Source: a virus (Duplodnaviria; Heunggongvirae; Uroviricota; Caudoviricetes). Taken from it: a stretch of 35,160 bases of DNA. A program made the position numbers and the translations under genes. The notes under the pieces were generated by a model. That model made no database searches and was not told where the DNA came from. It saw nothing but the letters and a program-made list of their open reading frames with translations. Shown one piece after another: positions 6,395 through 26,593 of this stretch; the stretch's first letter is position 1; every line of letters starts with the position of its first letter. Where the stretch lies: the IMG/VR virus record IMGVR_UViG_2734482770_000003; one strand, 5' to 3'.

Positions 6395-7648
6395 ATGTTT
6401 ATGTCGATTTATCAAGGTGGTAACAAGTTAAATGAGGATGATTTTCGTTCTCACGTTTATTCCTTGTGTCAATTAGATAATGTTGGCGTTCTGTTAGGTG
6501 CTGGTGCTTCTGTCGGTTGTGGTGGGAAAACGATGAAAGATGTATGGAAATCGTTTAAGCAAAACTACCCTGAGCTTTTGGGAGCACTTATTGATAAATA
6601 TCTTCTGGTTTCGCAAATTGATTCTGATAACAATTTGGTCAATGTTGAACTTTTGATAGATGAAGCAACTAAATTTCTTTCTGTAGCTAAAACTAGACGA
6701 TGTGAAGATGAAGAGGAGGAATTCAGGAAGATATTAAGTTCATTATATAAAGAGGTTACGAAGGCTGCATTATTAACAGGAGAACAGTTTAGAGAGAAAA
6801 ATCAGGGTAAAAAAGATGCGTTTAAATATCACAAAGAGTTAATTTCAAAATTAATTTCAAATAGACAGCCCGGTCAGTCGGCTCCGGCAATTTTTACAAC
6901 AAATTATGATTTGGCCTTAGAGTGGGCTGCAGAAGATTTAGGAATACAGTTGTTTAATGGTTTTTCTGGGCTACATACACGGCAGTTTTATCCCCAGAAT
7001 TTTGATTTGGCTTTCAGAAATGTAAATGCGAAGGGCGAAGCAAGATTCGGACATTATCATGCGTATCTCTATAAATTACATGGCTCACTTACGTGGTATC
7101 AAAATGATAGCTTGACTGTTAACGAAGTTAGTGCATCTCAAGCATATGATGAATATATTAATGACATAATCAATAAAGATGACTTTTATCGCGGTCAACA
7201 TTTGATTTATCCAGGGGCGAATAAATATAGCCATACAATCGGCTTCGTTTATGGAGAGATGTTTAGACGTTTTGGGGAGTTTATTTCGAAACCTCAAACA
7301 GCGTTGTTCATAAATGGGTTTGGTTTCGGTGATTATCATATAAATAGAATAATATTAGGCGCGTTACTGAATCCATCTTTCCATGTTGTTATATATTATC
7401 CTGAATTGAAAGAAGCAATTACCAAAGTAAGTAAGGGTGGCGGTTCGGAAGCTGAGAAAGCTATTGTTACTTTAAAAAATATGGCTTTCAATCAAGTAAC
7501 TGTAGTTGGGGGAGGAAGCAAGGCATATTTTAATAGTTTCGTAGAACATCTACCATACCCTGTGCTCTTTCCACGAGATAATATTGTTGATGAGTTGGTT
7601 GAAGCAATTGCTAATCTTTCTAAAGGAGAAGGTAATGTCCCTTTTTAA
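6395..7648 (+). CDS. SIR2-like (sirtuin-fold) NADase-type defence protein
   Basis: Gly-rich NAD-binding-like LLGAGASVGCGG near N-terminus, TTNYD motif, catalytic-His-like KLHGS; AT-rich cargo at P2 tin/old position; alternative start at 6401. Confidence 0.8.
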   Translation: MFMSIYQGGNKLNEDDFRSHVYSLCQLDNVGVLLGAGASVGCGGKTMKDVWKSFKQNYPELLGALIDKYLLVSQIDSDNNLVNVELLIDEATKFLSVAKTRRCEDEEEEFRKILSSLYKEVTKAALLTGEQFREKNQGKKDAFKYHKELISKLISNRQPGQSAPAIFTTNYDLALEWAAEDLGIQLFNGFSGLHTRQFYPQNFDLAFRNVNAKGEARFGHYHAYLYKLHGSLTWYQNDSLTVNEVSASQAYDEYINDIINKDDFYRGQHLIYPGANKYSHTIGFVYGEMFRRFGEFISKPQTALFINGFGFGDYHINRIILGALLNPSFHVVIYYPELKEAITKVSKGGGSEAEKAIVTLKNMAFNQVTVVGGGSKAYFNSFVEHLPYPVLFPRDNIVDELVEAIANLSKGEGNVPF

Positions 7649-9467
7649 ACTTACTGAAATCTCGGCTATTGGATACGTTGTAGGATTAGAAGGGGAAAGA
7701 ATTAGGATAAACCTGCATGAGGGGTTGCAAGGCAGATTAGCATCGCATAGAAAGGGGGTGAGCTCAGTAACGCAACCAGGAGATCTTATTGGGTTCGATG
7801 CAGGTAATATATTAGTTGTCGCAAGAGTGACAGATATGGCATTTGTTGAAGCGGATAAAGCGCATAAGGCAAATGTAGGCACATCTGATTTAGCTGATAT
7901 ACCTTTAAGACAAATTATCGCCTATGCAATTGGCTTTGTGAAAAGGGAGTTAAATGGTTATGTTTTTATATCAGAAGATTGGCGCTTACCTGCATTGGGT
8001 TCTTCTGCTGTTCCTTTGACTTCAGATTTTTTGAACATCATTTATAGTATTGATAAAGAAGAACTCCCAAAAGCGGTTGAATTAGGTGTGGATTCTCGAA
8101 CTAAAACCGTTAAGATATTTGCAAGTGTTGATAAATTATTGTCGCGACACTTAGCCGTTCTTGGTAGTACAGGATATGGTAAATCAAATTTCAATGCTTT
8201 GTTAACGAGGAAGGTTTCTGAAAAATACCCTAACTCAAGAATAGTTATTTTTGACATAAATGGTGAATACGCGCAAGCTTTTACAGGTATTCCAAATGTA
8301 AAGCACACTATTCTAGGGGAATCCCCAAATGTTGATAGTTTGGAAAAAAATCAGCAAAAGGGTGAGCTATATAGTGAAGAGTATTATTGTTATAAAAAGA
8401 TACCATATCAGGCATTAGGTTTTGCTGGGTTAATTAAATTATTAAGACCAAGTGATAAAACACAATTGCCCGCATTAAGAAATGCATTAAGTGCAATTAA
8501 TCGGACTCATTTTAAAAGCCGTAATATTTACTTGGAAAAAGATGATGGTGAAACTTTTCTTTTGTATGATGATTGTCGTGACACAAATCAAAGTAAATTG
8601 GCTGAGTGGTTGGATTTATTAAGGCGTAGACGTCTTAAAAGAACGAATGTATGGCCGCCGTTTAAAAGTTTAGCGACTTTGGTTGCTGAATTTGGATGTG
8701 TAGCTGCTGACCGTTCTAATGGAAGTAAACGTGACGCGTTTGGTTTTAGTAACGTGTTGCCATTGGTAAAAATCATACAACAACTTGCAGAGGATATAAG
8801 ATTTAAATCTATTGTTAATTTAAATGGAGGGGGTGAGCTAGCAGATGGTGGAACGCATTGGGATAAAGCTATGAGTGATGAAGTTGATTACTTCTTTGGT
8901 AAGGAAAAAGGACAAGAAAATGATTGGAATGTTCATATAGTTAATATGAAAAATTTGGCGCAAGATCATGCTCCAATGTTACTTAGTGCATTGTTGGAGA
9001 TGTTTGCTGAGATACTATTTAGACGTGGGCAGGAACGTTCGTATCCTACGGTACTTTTGTTGGAAGAAGCGCATCATTACCTGCGTGACCCTTATGCTGA
9101 AATTGACTCACAGATTAAAGCATATGAACGACTTGCTAAAGAAGGTAGGAAATTCAAATGCTCTTTAATTGTCAGTACTCAGCGACCCTCAGAGCTTTCT
9201 CCTACTGTTTTGGCAATGTGTTCAAACTGGTTTTCGTTACGTTTGACTAATGAAAGAGATTTACAGGCTCTCAGATATGCAATGGAAAGCGGTAATGAAC
9301 AAATCTTAAAACAAATATCAGGTTTACCAAGAGGTGATGCTGTTGCATTTGGTTCTGCATTTAATTTGCCTGTAAGAATTTCAATTAATCAAGCAAGGCC
9401 AGGGCCAAAATCTTCAGATGCTGTTTTTTCTGAAGAATGGGCTAATTGTACAGAATTACGTTGTTAA
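7635..9467 (+). CDS. HerA-like (FtsK/HerA superfamily) ATPase, partner of SIR2 protein
   Basis: Walker A VLGSTGYGKS, Walker B-like VLLLEEAHHY; ATG at 7635 preceded by aaaggagaagg; 14-nt overlap with upstream SIR2 stop. Confidence 0.8.
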   Translation: MSLFKLTEISAIGYVVGLEGERIRINLHEGLQGRLASHRKGVSSVTQPGDLIGFDAGNILVVARVTDMAFVEADKAHKANVGTSDLADIPLRQIIAYAIGFVKRELNGYVFISEDWRLPALGSSAVPLTSDFLNIIYSIDKEELPKAVELGVDSRTKTVKIFASVDKLLSRHLAVLGSTGYGKSNFNALLTRKVSEKYPNSRIVIFDINGEYAQAFTGIPNVKHTILGESPNVDSLEKNQQKGELYSEEYYCYKKIPYQALGFAGLIKLLRPSDKTQLPALRNALSAINRTHFKSRNIYLEKDDGETFLLYDDCRDTNQSKLAEWLDLLRRRRLKRTNVWPPFKSLATLVAEFGCVAADRSNGSKRDAFGFSNVLPLVKIIQQLAEDIRFKSIVNLNGGGELADGGTHWDKAMSDEVDYFFGKEKGQENDWNVHIVNMKNLAQDHAPMLLSALLEMFAEILFRRGQERSYPTVLLLEEAHHYLRDPYAEIDSQIKAYERLAKEGRKFKCSLIVSTQRPSELSPTVLAMCSNWFSLRLTNERDLQALRYAMESGNEQILKQISGLPRGDAVAFGSAFNLPVRISINQARPGPKSSDAVFSEEWANCTELRC

Positions 9468-18112: not shown

Positions 18113-18542
18113 TGCCGTCACGGTGCTGAAAACCAGCCCCGAGATGCTGCGGATATTCGTTGATAACGGGAGTATTGCCTCCACACTGGCGACGTCGCTG
18201 TCATTCGAAAAGCGTTACACGCTCAATGTGATTGTGACCGACTTTACCGGTGATTTTGACCTGCTCATCGTGCCGGTGCTGGCGTGGCTGCGGGAAAATC
18301 AGCCCGACATCATGACCACTGACGAAGGCCAGAAAAAGGGCTTCACGTTTTATGCAGACATCAACAATGACAGCAGCTTTGATATCAGCATCAGCCTGAT
18401 GCTGACCGAGCGCACGCTGGTCAGTGAGGTGGACGGCGCACTGCATGTGAAGAATATCCCGGAACCTCCGCCGCCGGAGCCGGTCACCCGCCCGATGGAG
18501 CTTTATATCAATGGCGAACTGGTGAGCAAGTGGGATGAATGA
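18075..18542 (+). CDS. R: Tail completion protein gpR
   Basis: 155 aa (same as P2 R). Confidence 0.8.
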   Translation: MLKPDSLRRALTDAVTVLKTSPEMLRIFVDNGSIASTLATSLSFEKRYTLNVIVTDFTGDFDLLIVPVLAWLRENQPDIMTTDEGQKKGFTFYADINNDSSFDISISLMLTERTLVSEVDGALHVKNIPEPPPPEPVTRPMELYINGELVSKWDE

Positions 18543-18987
18543 GTTTAAGCGTTTTGAAGACCGGCTGACCGGGCTGATTGAATCACTGTCACCATCAGGG
18601 CGTCGGCGACTGAGCACCGAACTGGCGAAACATCTGCGGCAGAGTCAGCAGCGCCGGGTGATGGCACAGAAAGCCCCGGACGGCACACCCTACGCACCAC
18701 GCCAGCAGCAGAGCGCCAGAAAAAAGACCGGTCGTGTTAAGCGAAAAATGTTTGCGAAACTTATCACCAGTCGTTTTTTGCATATCCGCGCCAGCCCGGA
18801 ACAGGCATCAATGGAATTTTACGGCGGGAAGTCACCGAAAATCGCCAGCGTGCATCAGTTTGGTCTGTCGGAAGAAACCCGGAAAGACGGTAAGAAAATT
18901 GATTATCCGGCGCGTCCTCTGCTCGGCTTTACCGGTGAGGATGTGCAGATGATTGAAGAGATTATCCTGGCTCACCTTGAGCGTTAG
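18535..18987 (+). CDS. S: Tail completion protein gpS
   Basis: 150 aa (same as P2 S). Confidence 0.8.
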   Translation: MNEFKRFEDRLTGLIESLSPSGRRRLSTELAKHLRQSQQRRVMAQKAPDGTPYAPRQQQSARKKTGRVKRKMFAKLITSRFLHIRASPEQASMEFYGGKSPKIASVHQFGLSEETRKDGKKIDYPARPLLGFTGEDVQMIEEIILAHLER

Positions 18988-19017
18988 TTTTATCCAGGCA
19001 GAGGCTGATGCGCAATT

Positions 19018-19052
19018 AAACATTGAGCGGCCATGCTGGTCGCTCAATGTTT
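19018..19052. terminator. Perfect 12-bp-stem hairpin between convergent S and cargo gene (bidirectional terminator candidate)
   Basis: aaacattgagcg / loop gccatgctggt / cgctcaatgttt. Confidence 0.45.
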
Positions 19053-19058
19053 AGAGGT

Positions 19059-19844
19059 TTATGAGTGATTTTTATTTGATGCTTTGTATTCTACAACCTT
19101 CTTATTGGCGTAAAGGAATTTTGTATATGACAGGAATATAACCAGACCTGAAATGAAATAGATGAGGGATATTATTAATAATGCTTTTTTTTGGCTGTTA
19201 TTATCTTTAATCTCCTGACTTAACCATTCCGAGTCCTCCTCGTTTAGCTGTAAGAGCTTATTGCAGGCGATCTCAGGAAGTGTGTCTTTTATAAATACGT
19301 TTCGTAGCCTCTTGCAATCGGCAAGGCTATAAGTTTTATTGAATTCAACTGTTTTATTGTTGAAGGATAAAAGAACTTTGTCACTATAAACATAGTACAT
19401 CATATTTTTATATGGTATGCCTATGGCATCTCTTACTATAGCGGATTGTTTGTTGTGTATATAACATGCGAAGAGAATATAAATAATGCTGGACAGAATT
19501 ACAATTATTGTTTTAATTATGTGTGGTGGTTTTGTTATGTCACCCCAGAAGCGAGTAAGAAAAAAATACGATGTTTTTAGTTTTCCATCAATCAGCCCCT
19601 GCTGTATCATTCTCACATCTTCGATGCCTGATACATTGATTCCGTTAATTATTTTAAATAGTTGAATGTCGCGCCATTTTTTGTCGAGCATTTTTAACTT
19701 TCTGTCTGAATACTCAAAATTGAAATAATGTGCAATAAACCTCATAAGATTACTTTTACCAAAGGTAATAAATGTTAATACTATTAATAAAAATAGATAC
19801 AAAGAGATAAACCACCACGCATTAGTCACATTATCACTGAACAT
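19059..19844 (-). CDS. Unrecognised cargo protein with three predicted transmembrane segments (P2 orf30 position)
   Basis: 261 aa; ATG with gaggag SD; hydrophobic stretches near residues 9-28, 108-128, 221-241; strongly AT-rich, opposite strand to flanking late genes. Confidence 0.6.
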   Translation of the reverse strand: MFSDNVTNAWWFISLYLFLLIVLTFITFGKSNLMRFIAHYFNFEYSDRKLKMLDKKWRDIQLFKIINGINVSGIEDVRMIQQGLIDGKLKTSYFFLTRFWGDITKPPHIIKTIIVILSSIIYILFACYIHNKQSAIVRDAIGIPYKNMMYYVYSDKVLLSFNNKTVEFNKTYSLADCKRLRNVFIKDTLPEIACNKLLQLNEEDSEWLSQEIKDNNSQKKALLIISLIYFISGLVIFLSYTKFLYANKKVVEYKASNKNHS

Positions 19845-19927
19845 TACGCTCTCCTCGAATGTTGTATGGTCGTTCTACAAATGAATCCAGATAGCATAAC
19901 TTTTATATATTGTGCAATCTCACACGC

Positions 19928-20563
19928 ATGAACACTCTCGCAAATATTCAGGAACTCGCGCGCGCACTGCGCAACATGATTCGTACCGGCCTTGTCGTCG
20001 AAACCAACCTTAAAGCCGGTCGCTGCCGTGTGCAGACCGGTGGCATGTGCACCGACTGGCTTCTGTGGCTGACCCATCGTGCCGGACGTTCGCGCACATG
20101 GTGGGCACCTTCCGTGGGGGAACAGGTGCTGATTCTGGCTGTGGGCGGTGAACTCGACACGGCGTTCGTTCTGCCGGGGATTTATTCCGGCGATAACCCC
20201 GCGCCGTCTGCGTCGGCGGATGCCCTGCATATCCGTTTCCCTGACGGGGCGGTGATTGAGTATGAACCCGAAACCAGTGCACTCACGGCAAGCGGAATTA
20301 AAACGGCCAGCGTGACGGCTTCTGATTCTGTTACTGCCACGGTGCCGGTGGTCATGGTGAAAGCATCAACCCGCGTCACCCTGGACACACCGGAGGTGGT
20401 CTGCACCAACAGGCTGATTACCGGCACGCTGGAAGTGCAGAAGGGCGGGACGATGCGCGGCAACATTGAACACACCGGCGGTGAACTCTCATCAAACGGT
20501 AAGGTACTGCATACCCATAAACACCCCGGCGACAGCGGCGGCACAACCGGGAGTCCTCTATGA
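19928..20563 (+). CDS. V: Baseplate spike/assembly protein gpV
   Basis: 211 aa from ATG at 19928 (P2 V is 211 aa); track ORF starts at a TTG at 19910. Confidence 0.85.
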   Translation: MNTLANIQELARALRNMIRTGLVVETNLKAGRCRVQTGGMCTDWLLWLTHRAGRSRTWWAPSVGEQVLILAVGGELDTAFVLPGIYSGDNPAPSASADALHIRFPDGAVIEYEPETSALTASGIKTASVTASDSVTATVPVVMVKASTRVTLDTPEVVCTNRLITGTLEVQKGGTMRGNIEHTGGELSSNGKVLHTHKHPGDSGGTTGSPL

Positions 20564-25567: not shown

Positions 25568-26593
25568 TCATTCAATAATGTCTGGTAGAACATTAAATCC
25601 AGTTGGTCGAAAAAAGGATAATCTTTGCTGATGAGAAACTAAATCTATCTTCACAATGTGATGATGGTTTTTTTTGATTTTTCTAGAGTACAATGAGTAA
25701 AAAAGATTTTCTGTGTTAATTTCCACAATGATTCCAGACATATCTAAGTCATAGCATTTTGCTAATGCTTTCAATTTTGGTGATATTTTGCTCTCTTTAA
25801 ACTTTTCATTATATTCCGGTTGAAAATATCTTATCAAAGCAGCTTCGATTATATTAATGGCTTGATTTTTGTTTGGGTGATTTTTTAATGCAAACTTAAA
25901 TCGCTTGTCATCGCTATCCGTATCATTAATTAATCCAGACCTCCCATCTAGAGATGAGAATACTTGTTCATGCTCAAAGGCATACATAAAAAGCATGATC
26001 TCTTGATCTGGCTTGTTATAAAGCGTTTGCGCCAATATTTTTTGTAATTTTGAATGACTCCTTAAACGTTCAACTGCATTCCTGCTACCATTTTTACCTA
26101 CGGCTTGTCCAATATAAAGAACTTCATATGAGGACAGATCTGAATAGTAACCTAATTTACTTGAATATAAGGTGGCAATGAAAGATGCAGAGATGTAAGT
26201 TACCTCCTCCCCTTCATTATTTATACTAATAACTTCTCTGAATGGATAGTTACATATTATATCAGTTGCATCGTCTTCTAATATCCAGTTGTGTTCAAAA
26301 TGGAACTTGCTTTCTTTACCATCTATTTTGTACCCTATCTCTCCTGAGAGAATGTTTTTCTCATGATTAATTGTATTATCAATAAAATAAAAGCTTGGGC
26401 GAGCGCATATAAAGTATATATGGCATTTTGAAAGTTGTTTTTCTTGTTCTAAATTAATTTTTGCATCAGACGTTAGTTGCTGAGCAGTAAGCATCGCTGT
26501 AAAACTATTTAAGTATCCAAAAGCAAATTCGTGTATGAATTTTCTTTTCACTCGAAATATCCTCACTAGAAATGAATAATATTGGTTTTTCAT
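25568..26593 (-). CDS. Unrecognised cargo protein at the Z/fun position (candidate defence/exclusion gene)
   Basis: 341 aa, no TM segments evident, AT-rich, opposite strand to tail genes, flanked by AT-rich non-coding DNA on both sides. Confidence 0.6.
   Translation of the reverse strand: MKNQYYSFLVRIFRVKRKFIHEFAFGYLNSFTAMLTAQQLTSDAKINLEQEKQLSKCHIYFICARPSFYFIDNTINHEKNILSGEIGYKIDGKESKFHFEHNWILEDDATDIICNYPFREVISINNEGEEVTYISASFIATLYSSKLGYYSDLSSYEVLYIGQAVGKNGSRNAVERLRSHSKLQKILAQTLYNKPDQEIMLFMYAFEHEQVFSSLDGRSGLINDTDSDDKRFKFALKNHPNKNQAINIIEAALIRYFQPEYNEKFKESKISPKLKALAKCYDLDMSGIIVEINTENLFYSLYSRKIKKNHHHIVKIDLVSHQQRLSFFRPTGFNVLPDIIE

What the first reader, a model, noticed from the sequence alone, without database searches (positions are those of the whole stretch)
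18988..19927. Unrecognised three-TM membrane protein in an AT-rich insert between S and V (orf30 position)
A 261-aa reverse-strand ORF (19059..19844) with three hydrophobic segments and a good SD sits between tail-completion gene S and baseplate gene V. It is separated from S by a perfect 12-bp-stem hairpin. Its composition is much more AT-rich than the neighbouring late genes, so it looks like a moron acquired independently of the backbone. Small membrane proteins at such sites often mediate superinfection exclusion or abortive infection; I recognise no family.
Basis: partly seen in the sequence, partly recalled or inferred. Interest (0 to 1): 0.75.

Follow-up and report, generated by a model that had tools for sequence, protein, structure and literature searches.

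The report
Phage P2 orf30 membrane gene
The ORF is real, but it is the long-catalogued, never-characterised accessory gene orf30 of phage P2. It encodes a three-pass inner-membrane protein of a small family tied to P2-like prophages, and its function is still untested.

Summary
A 261-codon reverse-strand ORF (19059..19844) with a good Shine-Dalgarno sequence and three hydrophobic helices fills an AT-rich 940-bp interval between tail gene S and baseplate gene V. A 13-bp perfect hairpin separates it from S.

It is not unrecognised. It is phage P2 orf30 (85% aa identity, same locus, annotated "nonessential") and equals PHROG 2407. It occurs in 464 of 5426 complete E. coli genomes.

New here:
- Relatives at 17-33% identity sit at the same S-V position, on the opposite strand, in P2-like prophages of Yersinia, Pectobacterium, Cronobacter and Sodalis, one metagenome contig, and a second E. 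coli type.
- All examined relatives have 33-35% GC.
- All 27 aligned members keep exactly two cysteines in the TM2-TM3 loop.
- The predicted topology is N-out/C-in, with a conserved 76-aa cytoplasmic helical domain.
- The soluble domains are under purifying selection, and the gene stays intact in decayed prophages.

No known fold, defence, exclusion or lysis family matches. My best guess, at modest confidence, is a lysogen-expressed envelope protein that gives narrow superinfection exclusion. Published lysogen data give no sign of broad defence. The gene is already known and its function is open, so interest is moderate to low.

The parts
18988..19927 (.). AT-rich S-V cassette (940 bp) that replaces the 66-bp spacer of P2-like phages lacking the gene
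   Evidence: GC is 33.8% against 53-61% in the flanks. Boundaries come from alignment with phage P2_4C9.
19059..19844 (-). orf30 coding sequence, 261 aa plus stop; orthologue of phage P2 Orf30 / PHROG 2407
   Evidence: It is intact in 73 of 73 full-length viral-contig copies with an ATG start, and dN/dS is 0.42.
19851..19856 (-). Shine-Dalgarno GAGGAG, 6 nt before the ATG
   Evidence: Read from the sequence. The region is conserved in 22 unique upstream sequences.
19752..19820 (-). TM1 (about residues 9-31); the N-terminal tail before it is predicted periplasmic
   Evidence: Hydropathy. AlphaFold helix 6-40. The N-tail has no K/R in 26 of 27 family members.
19524..19751 (-). Predicted cytoplasmic helical domain (residues 32-107), the best conserved part of the family. 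Motif D59-x-Q61-L-F, G68-I-N-V, D76, G87.
   Evidence: Alignment A2. Length is 76 aa in 25 of 27 members and positive-inside bias holds in 26 of 27. dN/dS is 0.38.
19446..19523 (-). TM2 (about residues 108-133)
   Evidence: dN/dS is 0.52.
19188..19445 (-). Predicted periplasmic alpha/beta domain (residues 134-219): four strands and two short helices. Invariant cysteine pair Cys177 (19314-19316) and Cys194 (19263-19265).
   Evidence: AlphaFold model, pLDDT 86. Exactly two Cys in this loop in 27 of 27 members. dN/dS is 0.24.
19119..19187 (-). TM3 (about residues 220-242), followed by a basic cytoplasmic tail (19062-19118)
19017..19053 (.). Hairpin with a 13-bp perfect stem between the convergent genes S and orf30; putative terminator for the O operon and probably for orf30
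   Evidence: P2 annotation. Identical in P2. Other genera have different hairpins at the same place.
19859..19886 (+). Late-activator (Ogr) binding site of the V-operon promoter. It lies inside the cassette, 15-42 nt upstream of the orf30 start codon.
   Evidence: Position transferred from the P2 record by alignment. The TGTTGTGTGGT-like half-site recurs upstream of V in the Yersinia, Pectobacterium, E. coli type-2 and metagenome loci.
18535..18987 (+). Gene S (tail completion), left flank
19928..20563 (+). Gene V (baseplate spike), right flank, divergent from orf30

Best explanation
**What it is (high confidence).** This is the orthologue of phage P2 orf30. It is a dispensable, solitary accessory gene of P2-like prophages, transcribed against the late operons.

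**Predicted protein (prediction, not shown).**
- A short acidic N-tail lies in the periplasm, followed by TM1.
- A length-invariant, roughly 76-aa helical domain lies in the cytoplasm, followed by TM2.
- An approximately 85-aa alpha/beta domain lies in the periplasm and is probably stapled by a Cys177-Cys194 disulfide. TM3 and a basic cytoplasmic tail follow.
- The membrane helices behave as exchangeable anchors. The two soluble domains carry the function.

**How it most likely works (inferred, about 0.3-0.4).**
- It is made in the lysogen from its own weak promoter. That promoter must overlap the V promoter, so it would be shut off when Ogr activates late transcription.
- It acts at the envelope as a narrow-spectrum superinfection-exclusion or defence factor. 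The periplasmic domain would engage an incoming phage component or a host entry factor. The cytoplasmic domain would hold a host partner.
- It is not a pore-forming suicide effector.
For: **Identity**
-.

**Accessory status**
- Present in 460 of 1583 E. coli genomes that have the S/V junction. Most others have an empty 66-bp site.

**Tie to the phage lineage**
- Seven family branches sit between S and V on the opposite strand: E. coli type 1, E. coli type 2, Yersinia, Pectobacterium, Cronobacter, Sodalis and a metagenome contig.
- 74 of 74 viral-contig loci with both flanks show the same arrangement.
- Two further members sit at other P2 accessory slots: after int and beside the portal gene.

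**Orientation**
- The gene is antisense to the late genes and has its own terminator.
- The Ogr site centre is only about 28 nt from the ATG, too close to activate orf30.

**Likely benefit to the host in lysogeny**
- The ORF stays intact in decayed prophages. In E. coli B, S is truncated and a portal fragment abuts it. In CP66-6, gene A is truncated and the H-D region is deleted.
- Pantoea ARC270 keeps only an integrase stump plus an intact homologue.

**Selection**
- dN/dS is 0.24 in the periplasmic loop, 0.38 in the cytoplasmic loop, and about 1 in TM1 and TM3.

**Topology**
- Positive-inside bias holds in 26 of 27 members, and exactly two loop-2 Cys occur in 27 of 27.
- The AlphaFold model has pLDDT 86 and pTM 0.72.

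**Locus as a defence-type site**
- An alternative cargo at the same slot, also on the reverse strand, is a RelA/SpoT-domain protein that matches PADLOC candidate PDC-S33.
- The window's TO region (between replication gene A and portal gene Q) carries SIR2-HerA.
- From my own knowledge of the P2 literature, the characterised AT-rich P2 morons old, tin and fun(Z) are all phage-exclusion genes.
Against: - There is no experimental phenotype in any paper I could find.
- There is no similarity to any PADLOC model.
- No PHROG matches other than the unannotated 2407, apart from two single-member hits to other PHROG families at E of about 1e-3 to 1e-2.
- Rousset et al. made E. coli C lysogens of four isolated P2-like phages and tested them on an eight-phage panel. 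At least three of those phages (AC1, DC1, SIAC10) carry orf30. Only AC1 is described as protective, and the cloned TO-region system reproduced that phenotype (PMC9122126). I did not see their Figure S5.
- I found no site-wise or domain-wise signal of diversifying selection in the soluble domains.
- No convincing sigma-70 promoter was found upstream, so expression in lysogens is assumed, not shown.
- From my own knowledge, classical genetics shows that superinfecting P2 DNA enters P2 lysogens. So it does not exclude its own phage type.
Confidence: 0.38

Rival explanations
1. Lysogenic-conversion factor unrelated to phages. The protein would change host envelope physiology (stress signalling, transport, colonisation or resistance traits) by binding host membrane or cytoplasmic partners through its two soluble domains.
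For: - It is retained intact in decayed prophages and in a relic.
- The most conserved part is cytoplasmic and length-invariant. That fits a conserved host partner better than a variable phage target.
- I found no diversifying selection.
- The published lysogen tests describe no orf30-linked defence.
Against: - There is no enzymatic or signalling domain and no conserved partner gene.
- The family is restricted to P2-like prophage slots rather than spread over chromosomes.
- The neighbouring accessory loci of the same phages are defence loci.
Confidence: 0.22
2. Abortive-infection membrane effector. Orf30 would oligomerise on sensing infection and depolarise or permeabilise the inner membrane, in the manner of RexB.
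For: - It is a small multi-pass membrane protein encoded by a prophage at a cargo site.
- Membrane effectors are common in defence systems, as discussed in PMC9122126.
Against: - The TM helices evolve almost neutrally (dN/dS 0.5-1.1) and carry no conserved polar or charged residues. The constraint sits in the soluble loops.
- It is a solitary gene with no sensor partner.
- It has no PADLOC match.
- It is stably carried in 8.5% of E. coli genomes with no disrupted copies, so it is not obviously toxic.
Confidence: 0.12
3. Non-essential helper of the P2 lytic cycle, for example tuning lysis timing, tail or baseplate assembly at the membrane, or genome delivery. Its position between the lysis/tail-completion genes and the baseplate genes would suggest this.
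For: - It keeps a constant position next to V and S across genera.
- The gene is divergent from V, with the Ogr site inside its leader.
Against: - It is on the opposite strand to every late operon, and the Ogr site is too close to its ATG to activate it.
- It is absent from about 70% of E. coli P2-type S-V junctions and from viable phages such as P2_4C9.
- P2 annotates it as nonessential.
- Homologues also sit after int and beside the portal gene.
- It survives when the structural genes decay.
Confidence: 0.13
4. No cellular function. The cassette would persist as hitch-hiking AT-rich DNA, or because it supplies the O-operon terminator and the V promoter.
For: - The cassette does contain the terminator hairpin and the Ogr-dependent V promoter.
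- Overall dN/dS of 0.42 is relaxed compared with 0.07-0.14 for R, S, V and W.
Against: - None of 75 complete copies is disrupted and there are no indels.
- The soluble domains show dN/dS of 0.24-0.38.
- The architecture, motifs and Cys pair are conserved down to 17% identity.
- A homologue is kept after loss of the whole prophage.
Confidence: 0.05

Closest known systems
Bacteriophage P2 Orf30 (AAD03281, record AF063097; PHROG 2407)
   Same: - It is the same gene: 85% aa identity over 261 of 261 residues.
- It has the same S-V position, strand, terminator hairpin and V-promoter arrangement.
- The PHROG 2407 match is full-length, E = 2e-144.
   Different: - It is an allelic variant. The closest sequenced phage is P2_4A7b at 98.5%.
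- The reference gene has no known function either. It is annotated only as "nonessential".
Pfam DUF6216 (PF19723), uncharacterised proteobacterial membrane proteins of about 270 aa
   Same: - A family member from a Sodalis P2-like prophage (P0028), also between S and V, matches DUF6216 end to end above the gathering score: 28.9 against 27.3 bits.
- Four other members match it with E-values below 0.01.
- Length and three-TM layout are the same.
   Different: - The window protein itself gives no DUF6216 hit. The link is only transitive.
- DUF6216 carries no functional information.
P2 lysogenic-conversion genes old, tin and fun(Z), and the P2 defence hotspots of Rousset et al. 2022
   Same: - They are also AT-rich, dispensable cargo at fixed slots of the P2 backbone.
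- The S-V slot was named with the TO and Z regions as the three variable P2 loci (PMC3091744).
- In this window the TO slot holds SIR2-HerA, and the Z slot holds another AT-rich ORF.
   Different: - Those are soluble proteins or multi-gene systems with demonstrated exclusion phenotypes.
- orf30 is a membrane protein with none shown.
- The S-V slot is low-diversity (mostly empty or orf30), unlike the highly variable TO hotspot.
Membrane superinfection-exclusion proteins (T4 Imm, P22 SieA, HK97 gp15); functional analogy recalled from my own knowledge
   Same: They are small prophage- or phage-encoded inner-membrane proteins that act alone at the envelope.
   Different: - There is no detectable sequence relationship. 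The PHROG scan at E up to 10 returns only phrog_2407.
- No structural match was found.
- Orf30 has a conserved cytoplasmic domain that, as far as I recall, those proteins lack.
- No exclusion phenotype is known.
Claudin / TARP-gamma tetraspan fold (PDB 3x29_C, 9s41_J, 5b2g_A)
   Same: - Both have a membrane helical bundle capped by a small extracytoplasmic beta-sheet. From my own knowledge, the claudin sheet carries a disulfide.
   Different: - Orf30 has three TM helices, not four. This is an analogy at most.

Membership tests
P2 Orf30 / PHROG 2407 | Full-length match to the family profile | tested here: met
   phrog_2407 matches residues 1-261 of 261, E = 2.2e-144. All 27 aligned relatives also hit it.
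P2 Orf30 / PHROG 2407 | Located between tail-completion gene S and baseplate gene V of a P2-like genome, on the opposite strand | tested here: met
   74 of 74 viral-contig loci with both flanks show this.
P2 Orf30 / PHROG 2407 | About 260 aa with three hydrophobic helices and a Cys pair in the TM2-TM3 loop | tested here: met
Pfam DUF6216 (PF19723) | Score at or above the Pfam gathering threshold (27.3 bits) | tested here: not met
   The window protein has no DUF6216 hit at E up to 10. Relative P0028 reaches 28.9 bits and P0038 reaches 24.3 bits, so the relationship is transitive only.
Known anti-phage defence systems (PADLOC-DB 2.0) | Match to any defence-protein model | tested here: not met
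   0 families at E up to 10.
Annotated superinfection-exclusion or lysis families of phages (PHROGs) | Match to a PHROG annotated as exclusion, immunity, holin or spanin | tested here: not met
   Only phrog_2407 (unknown function) matches at E up to 10. Family members add only two single-member hits to other PHROG families.
Superinfection-exclusion proteins (functional class) | Expression in the lysogen and a block of infection by another phage at adsorption or DNA entry | not testable with these tools
   This needs wet-lab assays. The only indirect data are lysogens of orf30-carrying phages, for which no orf30-linked protection is described.
Moron (independently transcribed prophage cargo) | Dispensable, with its own promoter and terminator, flanked by conserved backbone genes | tested here: inconclusive
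   Dispensability, flanks and the terminator hairpin are met. No convincing sigma-70 promoter was found; the best match is 8 of 12 with a 19-bp spacer.
Solved or predicted structural families | Significant fold match | tested here: not met
   [not shown]

The most novel reading that the evidence does not exclude
Orf30/PHROG 2407 could be a fold-novel, envelope-spanning exclusion or sensing protein specific to P2-like phages. Its periplasmic disulfide domain would recognise an incoming phage or envelope signal. Its invariant cytoplasmic domain would relay or block. Late-activator binding over its leader would switch it off. That would make the S-V slot a third functional defence locus of P2-like prophages and would define a new single-gene membrane defence family.
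Probability: 0.3. Interest if true: 0.6.

Novelty: already known. Interest (0 to 1): 0.35.

Why it matters
orf30 is one of the last P2 genes without a function. The allele family here sits in 8.5% of complete E. coli genomes, including the E. coli B laboratory lineage.

If it proves to be an exclusion or defence factor, it would add a new single-gene membrane mechanism. It would also add a third defence slot to a phage family already used as a model for defence hotspots.

If it instead alters host envelope physiology, it would be a widespread conversion factor.

This analysis makes the question directly testable. It gives a topology model, two candidate functional domains, point-mutation targets (Cys177, Cys194, D59/Q61/G68/D76/G87), natural empty-site controls, and a panel of divergent orthologues.

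As a scan finding it is still a rediscovery of a catalogued gene.

Tried and rejected
**Family and structure searches that gave nothing useful**
- Pfam, NCBIfam and PADLOC scans of the window protein gave only sub-threshold transmembrane noise.
- The PDB sequence-profile search found nothing.
- The AFDB library was not available.

**Other sequence searches**
- A plasmid search found no copy.
- The Rfam scan of the interval returned only a far-below-threshold miRNA hit on the hairpin.
- A genome-wide locus search with the 27-sequence alignment failed because no stretch was conserved enough.
- A word-indexed protein search with the family profile or with P0028 added few or no sequences.

**Tests of specific ideas**
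- hhalign of the family against the two other unknown S-V cargos (246 aa and 347 aa) showed they are unrelated.
- A sigma-70 promoter upstream of orf30 was not found convincingly.
- Positive selection was rejected. No site is significant, and the raised gene-wide dN/dS comes from the TM helices.
- Recent import as the cause of AT-richness was rejected. Relatives at 20% identity in hosts of 48-56% GC all have GC3 of 32-34%.
- Ogr as an activator of orf30 was rejected on geometry.

**Literature**
- Searches for orf30 function, DUF6216, protein accessions and P2 lysogen transcriptomes found nothing functional.
Full report
**1.

The window carries a 261-codon ORF on the reverse strand, 19059..19844. 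GAGGAG lies 6 nt before its ATG. Three strongly hydrophobic 19-residue windows cover residues 11-29, 109-127 and 221-239.

The ORF lies between gene S (18535..18987) and gene V. The true ATG of V is 19928, by alignment to P2. The finding's interval 18988-19927 is therefore exactly the S-V intergenic space.

A hairpin with a 13-bp perfect stem (19017-19029 paired with 19041-19053) lies between the two convergent stop codons. It folds much better than shuffled sequence on both strands. The ORF has 32% GC and the neighbouring late genes have 53-61%.

**2. It is phage P2 orf30**

tblastn against sequenced phages gives 21 records, all Peduovirus. All hits are at the same position. P2 itself matches at 85% aa identity over the full length.

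The P2 record annotates four relevant features:
- the gene, as "orf30, nonessential";
- the hairpin, as the putative rho-independent terminator of the O operon;
- an activator (Ogr) binding site;
- the V-operon start, between orf30 and V.

By alignment the activator site is window 19859-19886, which is 15-42 nt upstream of the orf30 ATG.

The protein matches PHROG 2407 (unknown function) end to end, E = 2e-144. It matches nothing in Pfam, NCBIfam or PADLOC.

The literature treats orf30 as a gene of unknown function. It names the S-V site, with the TO region (between replication gene A and portal gene Q) and the Z region, as the three places where P2-like phages carry horizontally acquired genes (PMC3091744, PMC2771037 and PMC6823313). 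I found no functional study.

**3. The cassette and its distribution**

P2-like phages without the gene, such as P2_4C9, have a 66-bp S-V spacer. Homology to the window ends 2-3 bases after the S stop and resumes at the V ATG. The 940-bp block is therefore swapped as a unit. It contains the hairpin, orf30 and the Ogr-dependent V promoter.

Among 5426 complete E. coli genomes:
- 1583 have a P2-type S/V match;
- 460 of those contain orf30;
- most of the rest show the short empty form.

Rare alternatives at the same site are:
- a reverse-strand 359-aa RelA/SpoT-domain protein that matches PADLOC candidate PDC-S33;
- a reverse-strand 347-aa unknown protein;
- a forward-strand 246-aa unknown protein.

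The two unknowns are unrelated to Orf30. No plasmid carries orf30.

**4. A small family bound to P2-like prophages**

An exhaustive profile search of 1.84 billion representative proteins found only 44, about 25 of them full length (250-271 aa). These share 17-40% identity with the window protein. Named members all come from Enterobacterales.

Genomic context was resolved for eleven branches:

| Branch | Position |
|---|---|
| E. coli type 1 (this window) | between S and V, opposite strand |
| Yersinia | between S and V, opposite strand |
| Pectobacterium | between S and V, opposite strand |
| E. coli type 2 | between S and V, opposite strand |
| Cronobacter | between S and V, opposite strand |
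| Metagenome contig | between S and V, opposite strand |
| Sodalis | between S and V, opposite strand |
| Pantoea S-LA4 | directly after int of a 186-like prophage |
| Pantoea ARC270 | same chromosomal site; only an integrase stump remains, homologue intact |
| Metagenome member P0038 | next to a P2-type portal gene (the TO slot) |
| Two further members | contig ends, uninformative |

Of 78 viral-contig loci, 74 of 74 with both flanks have V and S around the gene.

The flanking proteins of these phages are 46-83% identical to the window's. The Orf30 homologues are 21-33% identical.

Every examined member has 33-35% GC and GC3 of 32-34%, in loci of 48-56% GC. The AT-richness is therefore a stable family trait, not a sign of recent arrival.

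One member reaches the Pfam gathering score for DUF6216 over its full length, and four others match it with E-values below 0.01. The family is therefore a remote branch of that uncharacterised Pfam family.

**5. Protein anatomy**

An AlphaFold model built with the 27-sequence alignment reaches pLDDT 86 and pTM 0.72. In true residue numbers it shows:
- a long helix at 6-40 (TM1);
- three helices at 48-94;
- a helix at 109-134 (TM2);
- four beta-strands at 141-173;
- two short helices at 174-198;
- a long helix at 202-260 (TM3 plus tail).

Positive-inside bias favours N-out/C-in in 26 of 27 members. The N-tail has no K/R in 26 of 27 members. Loop 1 is 76 residues in 25 of 27 members. Loop 2 has exactly two cysteines in all 27 members; in the window these are Cys177 and Cys194. 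The likely reading is a periplasmic disulfide-stabilised domain and a cytoplasmic helical domain. The cytoplasmic domain carries the best-conserved motif: D59-x-Q61-L-F, G68-I-N-V, D76 and G87.

**6. Selection**

Across eight phage alleles the ratio of mean dN to mean dS is 0.47 for orf30. It is 0.07-0.14 for R, S, V and W.

A tree-based count on 54 unique alleles gives the following (one search agrees):

| Region | dN/dS |
|---|---|
| Whole gene | 0.42 |
| Periplasmic loop | 0.24 |
| Cytoplasmic loop | 0.38 |
| TM2 | 0.52 |
| TM3 | 0.95 |
| TM1 | 1.14 |

No individual site is significant. The soluble domains are constrained, the membrane helices are interchangeable anchors, and I found no evidence of an arms-race signature.

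None of 75 complete copies is disrupted. The gene remains intact in degraded prophages: E. coli B, strain CP66-6, and several genomes with truncated S or V.

**7. Expression logic (inferred)**

The gene is antisense to all late operons and ends at a shared hairpin. The Ogr site centre is about 28 nt from the ATG, so Ogr cannot act as an upstream activator for orf30. Any orf30 promoter must overlap the V promoter and the 5' end of V.

I found only a weak sigma-70-like candidate: 8 of 12 matches with a 19-bp spacer. Expression in lysogens, and shut-off when late transcription fires, is therefore a hypothesis and not a result.

**8. What it most likely does**

The data point to a host-beneficial, lysogen-state envelope function carried out by the two soluble domains. 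The supporting features are:
- it is a solitary gene;
- it occupies prophage accessory slots;
- it is antisense to the late genes;
- it is retained after prophage decay;
- its soluble domains are constrained;
- defence genes occupy the same and neighbouring slots.

I favour narrow-spectrum superinfection exclusion or defence at the inner membrane, at about 0.3-0.4.

Three things count against a broad defence role:
- there are no matches to known defence or exclusion families;
- Rousset et al. made E. coli C lysogens of four isolated P2-like phages, of which at least AC1, DC1 and SIAC10 carry orf30, and reported protection only for AC1; the cloned TO-region system reproduced that protection;
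- from my own knowledge, classical work shows that P2 DNA enters P2 lysogens.

A pore-type abortive effector is disfavoured because the TM helices are unconstrained. A lytic-cycle role is disfavoured by strand, dispensability, the alternative slots, and survival in remnants. A non-phage conversion function is the main rival.

**9. Verdict**

The finding is a correct description of a gene that is already catalogued.

Four results are new:
- the conserved S-V residence of a deeply diverged family;
- the stable AT-richness;
- the topology and Cys-pair model;
- the DUF6216 link.

Function remains open and easy to test. I score interest at 0.35.

Noticed in passing
window 6395-9467 (+): The AT-rich TO region between replication gene A and portal gene Q carries a SIR2 protein (417 aa, PADLOC SIR2, E = 4e-190) and a HerA ATPase (627-aa ORF from a TTG start; PADLOC HerA, E = 2e-277). 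This is a SIR2-HerA anti-phage pair at the classical old/tin slot.
   Followed up: partly
window 25568-26593 (-): A third AT-rich island (GC about 32%) lies at the Z/fun slot between tail-fibre assembly gene G and sheath gene FI. It holds a 341-aa reverse-strand ORF with no PADLOC or Pfam match, so it is another uncharacterised cargo gene.
   Followed up: partly
L019 834-1913 (-) (E. coli S88, S-V slot): The S-V slot can instead carry a 359-aa RelA/SpoT-domain protein (Pfam RelA_SpoT, E = 2e-21; PADLOC candidate PDC-S33, E = 1e-16). It is also on the reverse strand. This suggests a toxSAS-type defence gene at the same site.
   Followed up: partly
L020 856-1899 (-) and L021 771-1511 (+): Two further S-V cargos have no family match and are unrelated to Orf30. 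One is a 347-aa reverse-strand ORF. The other is a 246-aa forward-strand ORF, whose 741-bp length matches the ORF reported at this site in phage R18C.
   Followed up: partly
L006 9364-10777 (Pantoea sp. ARC270), compared with L002: This is a prophage relic. An 89-bp att-like repeat, a 79-aa degenerate C-terminal integrase fragment and an intact 258-aa Orf30-family gene are all that remain of a 186-like prophage. The full prophage is present at the same site in Pantoea sp. S-LA4.
   Followed up: yes
L026 8800-10440 (Pectobacterium) and L029 4965-5899 (Cronobacter): In some genera the S-V slot holds extra genes beside the Orf30 homologue. Pectobacterium has an ORF6N-domain protein plus two small ORFs. 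Cronobacter has a 180-aa unknown protein plus a DUF7480 protein. So the slot can grow into a small island.
   Followed up: partly
window 18970-18997 (+): A second, small terminator-like hairpin (GCTCACCTTGAGC followed by GTTAGTTTTA) overlaps the end of gene S. The stem is not conserved in the empty-site phage P2_4C9.
   Followed up: no
L018 (E. coli CP66-6) and L032 (E. coli B derivative AS19): Copies of the cassette that are identical (CP66-6) or 99.5% identical (AS19) to the window sit in clearly defective P2-like prophages. CP66-6 has a truncated gene A and an H-to-D deletion. E. coli B has S cut to 168 bp next to a portal fragment. So the common laboratory B lineage carries an intact orf30.
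   Followed up: partly
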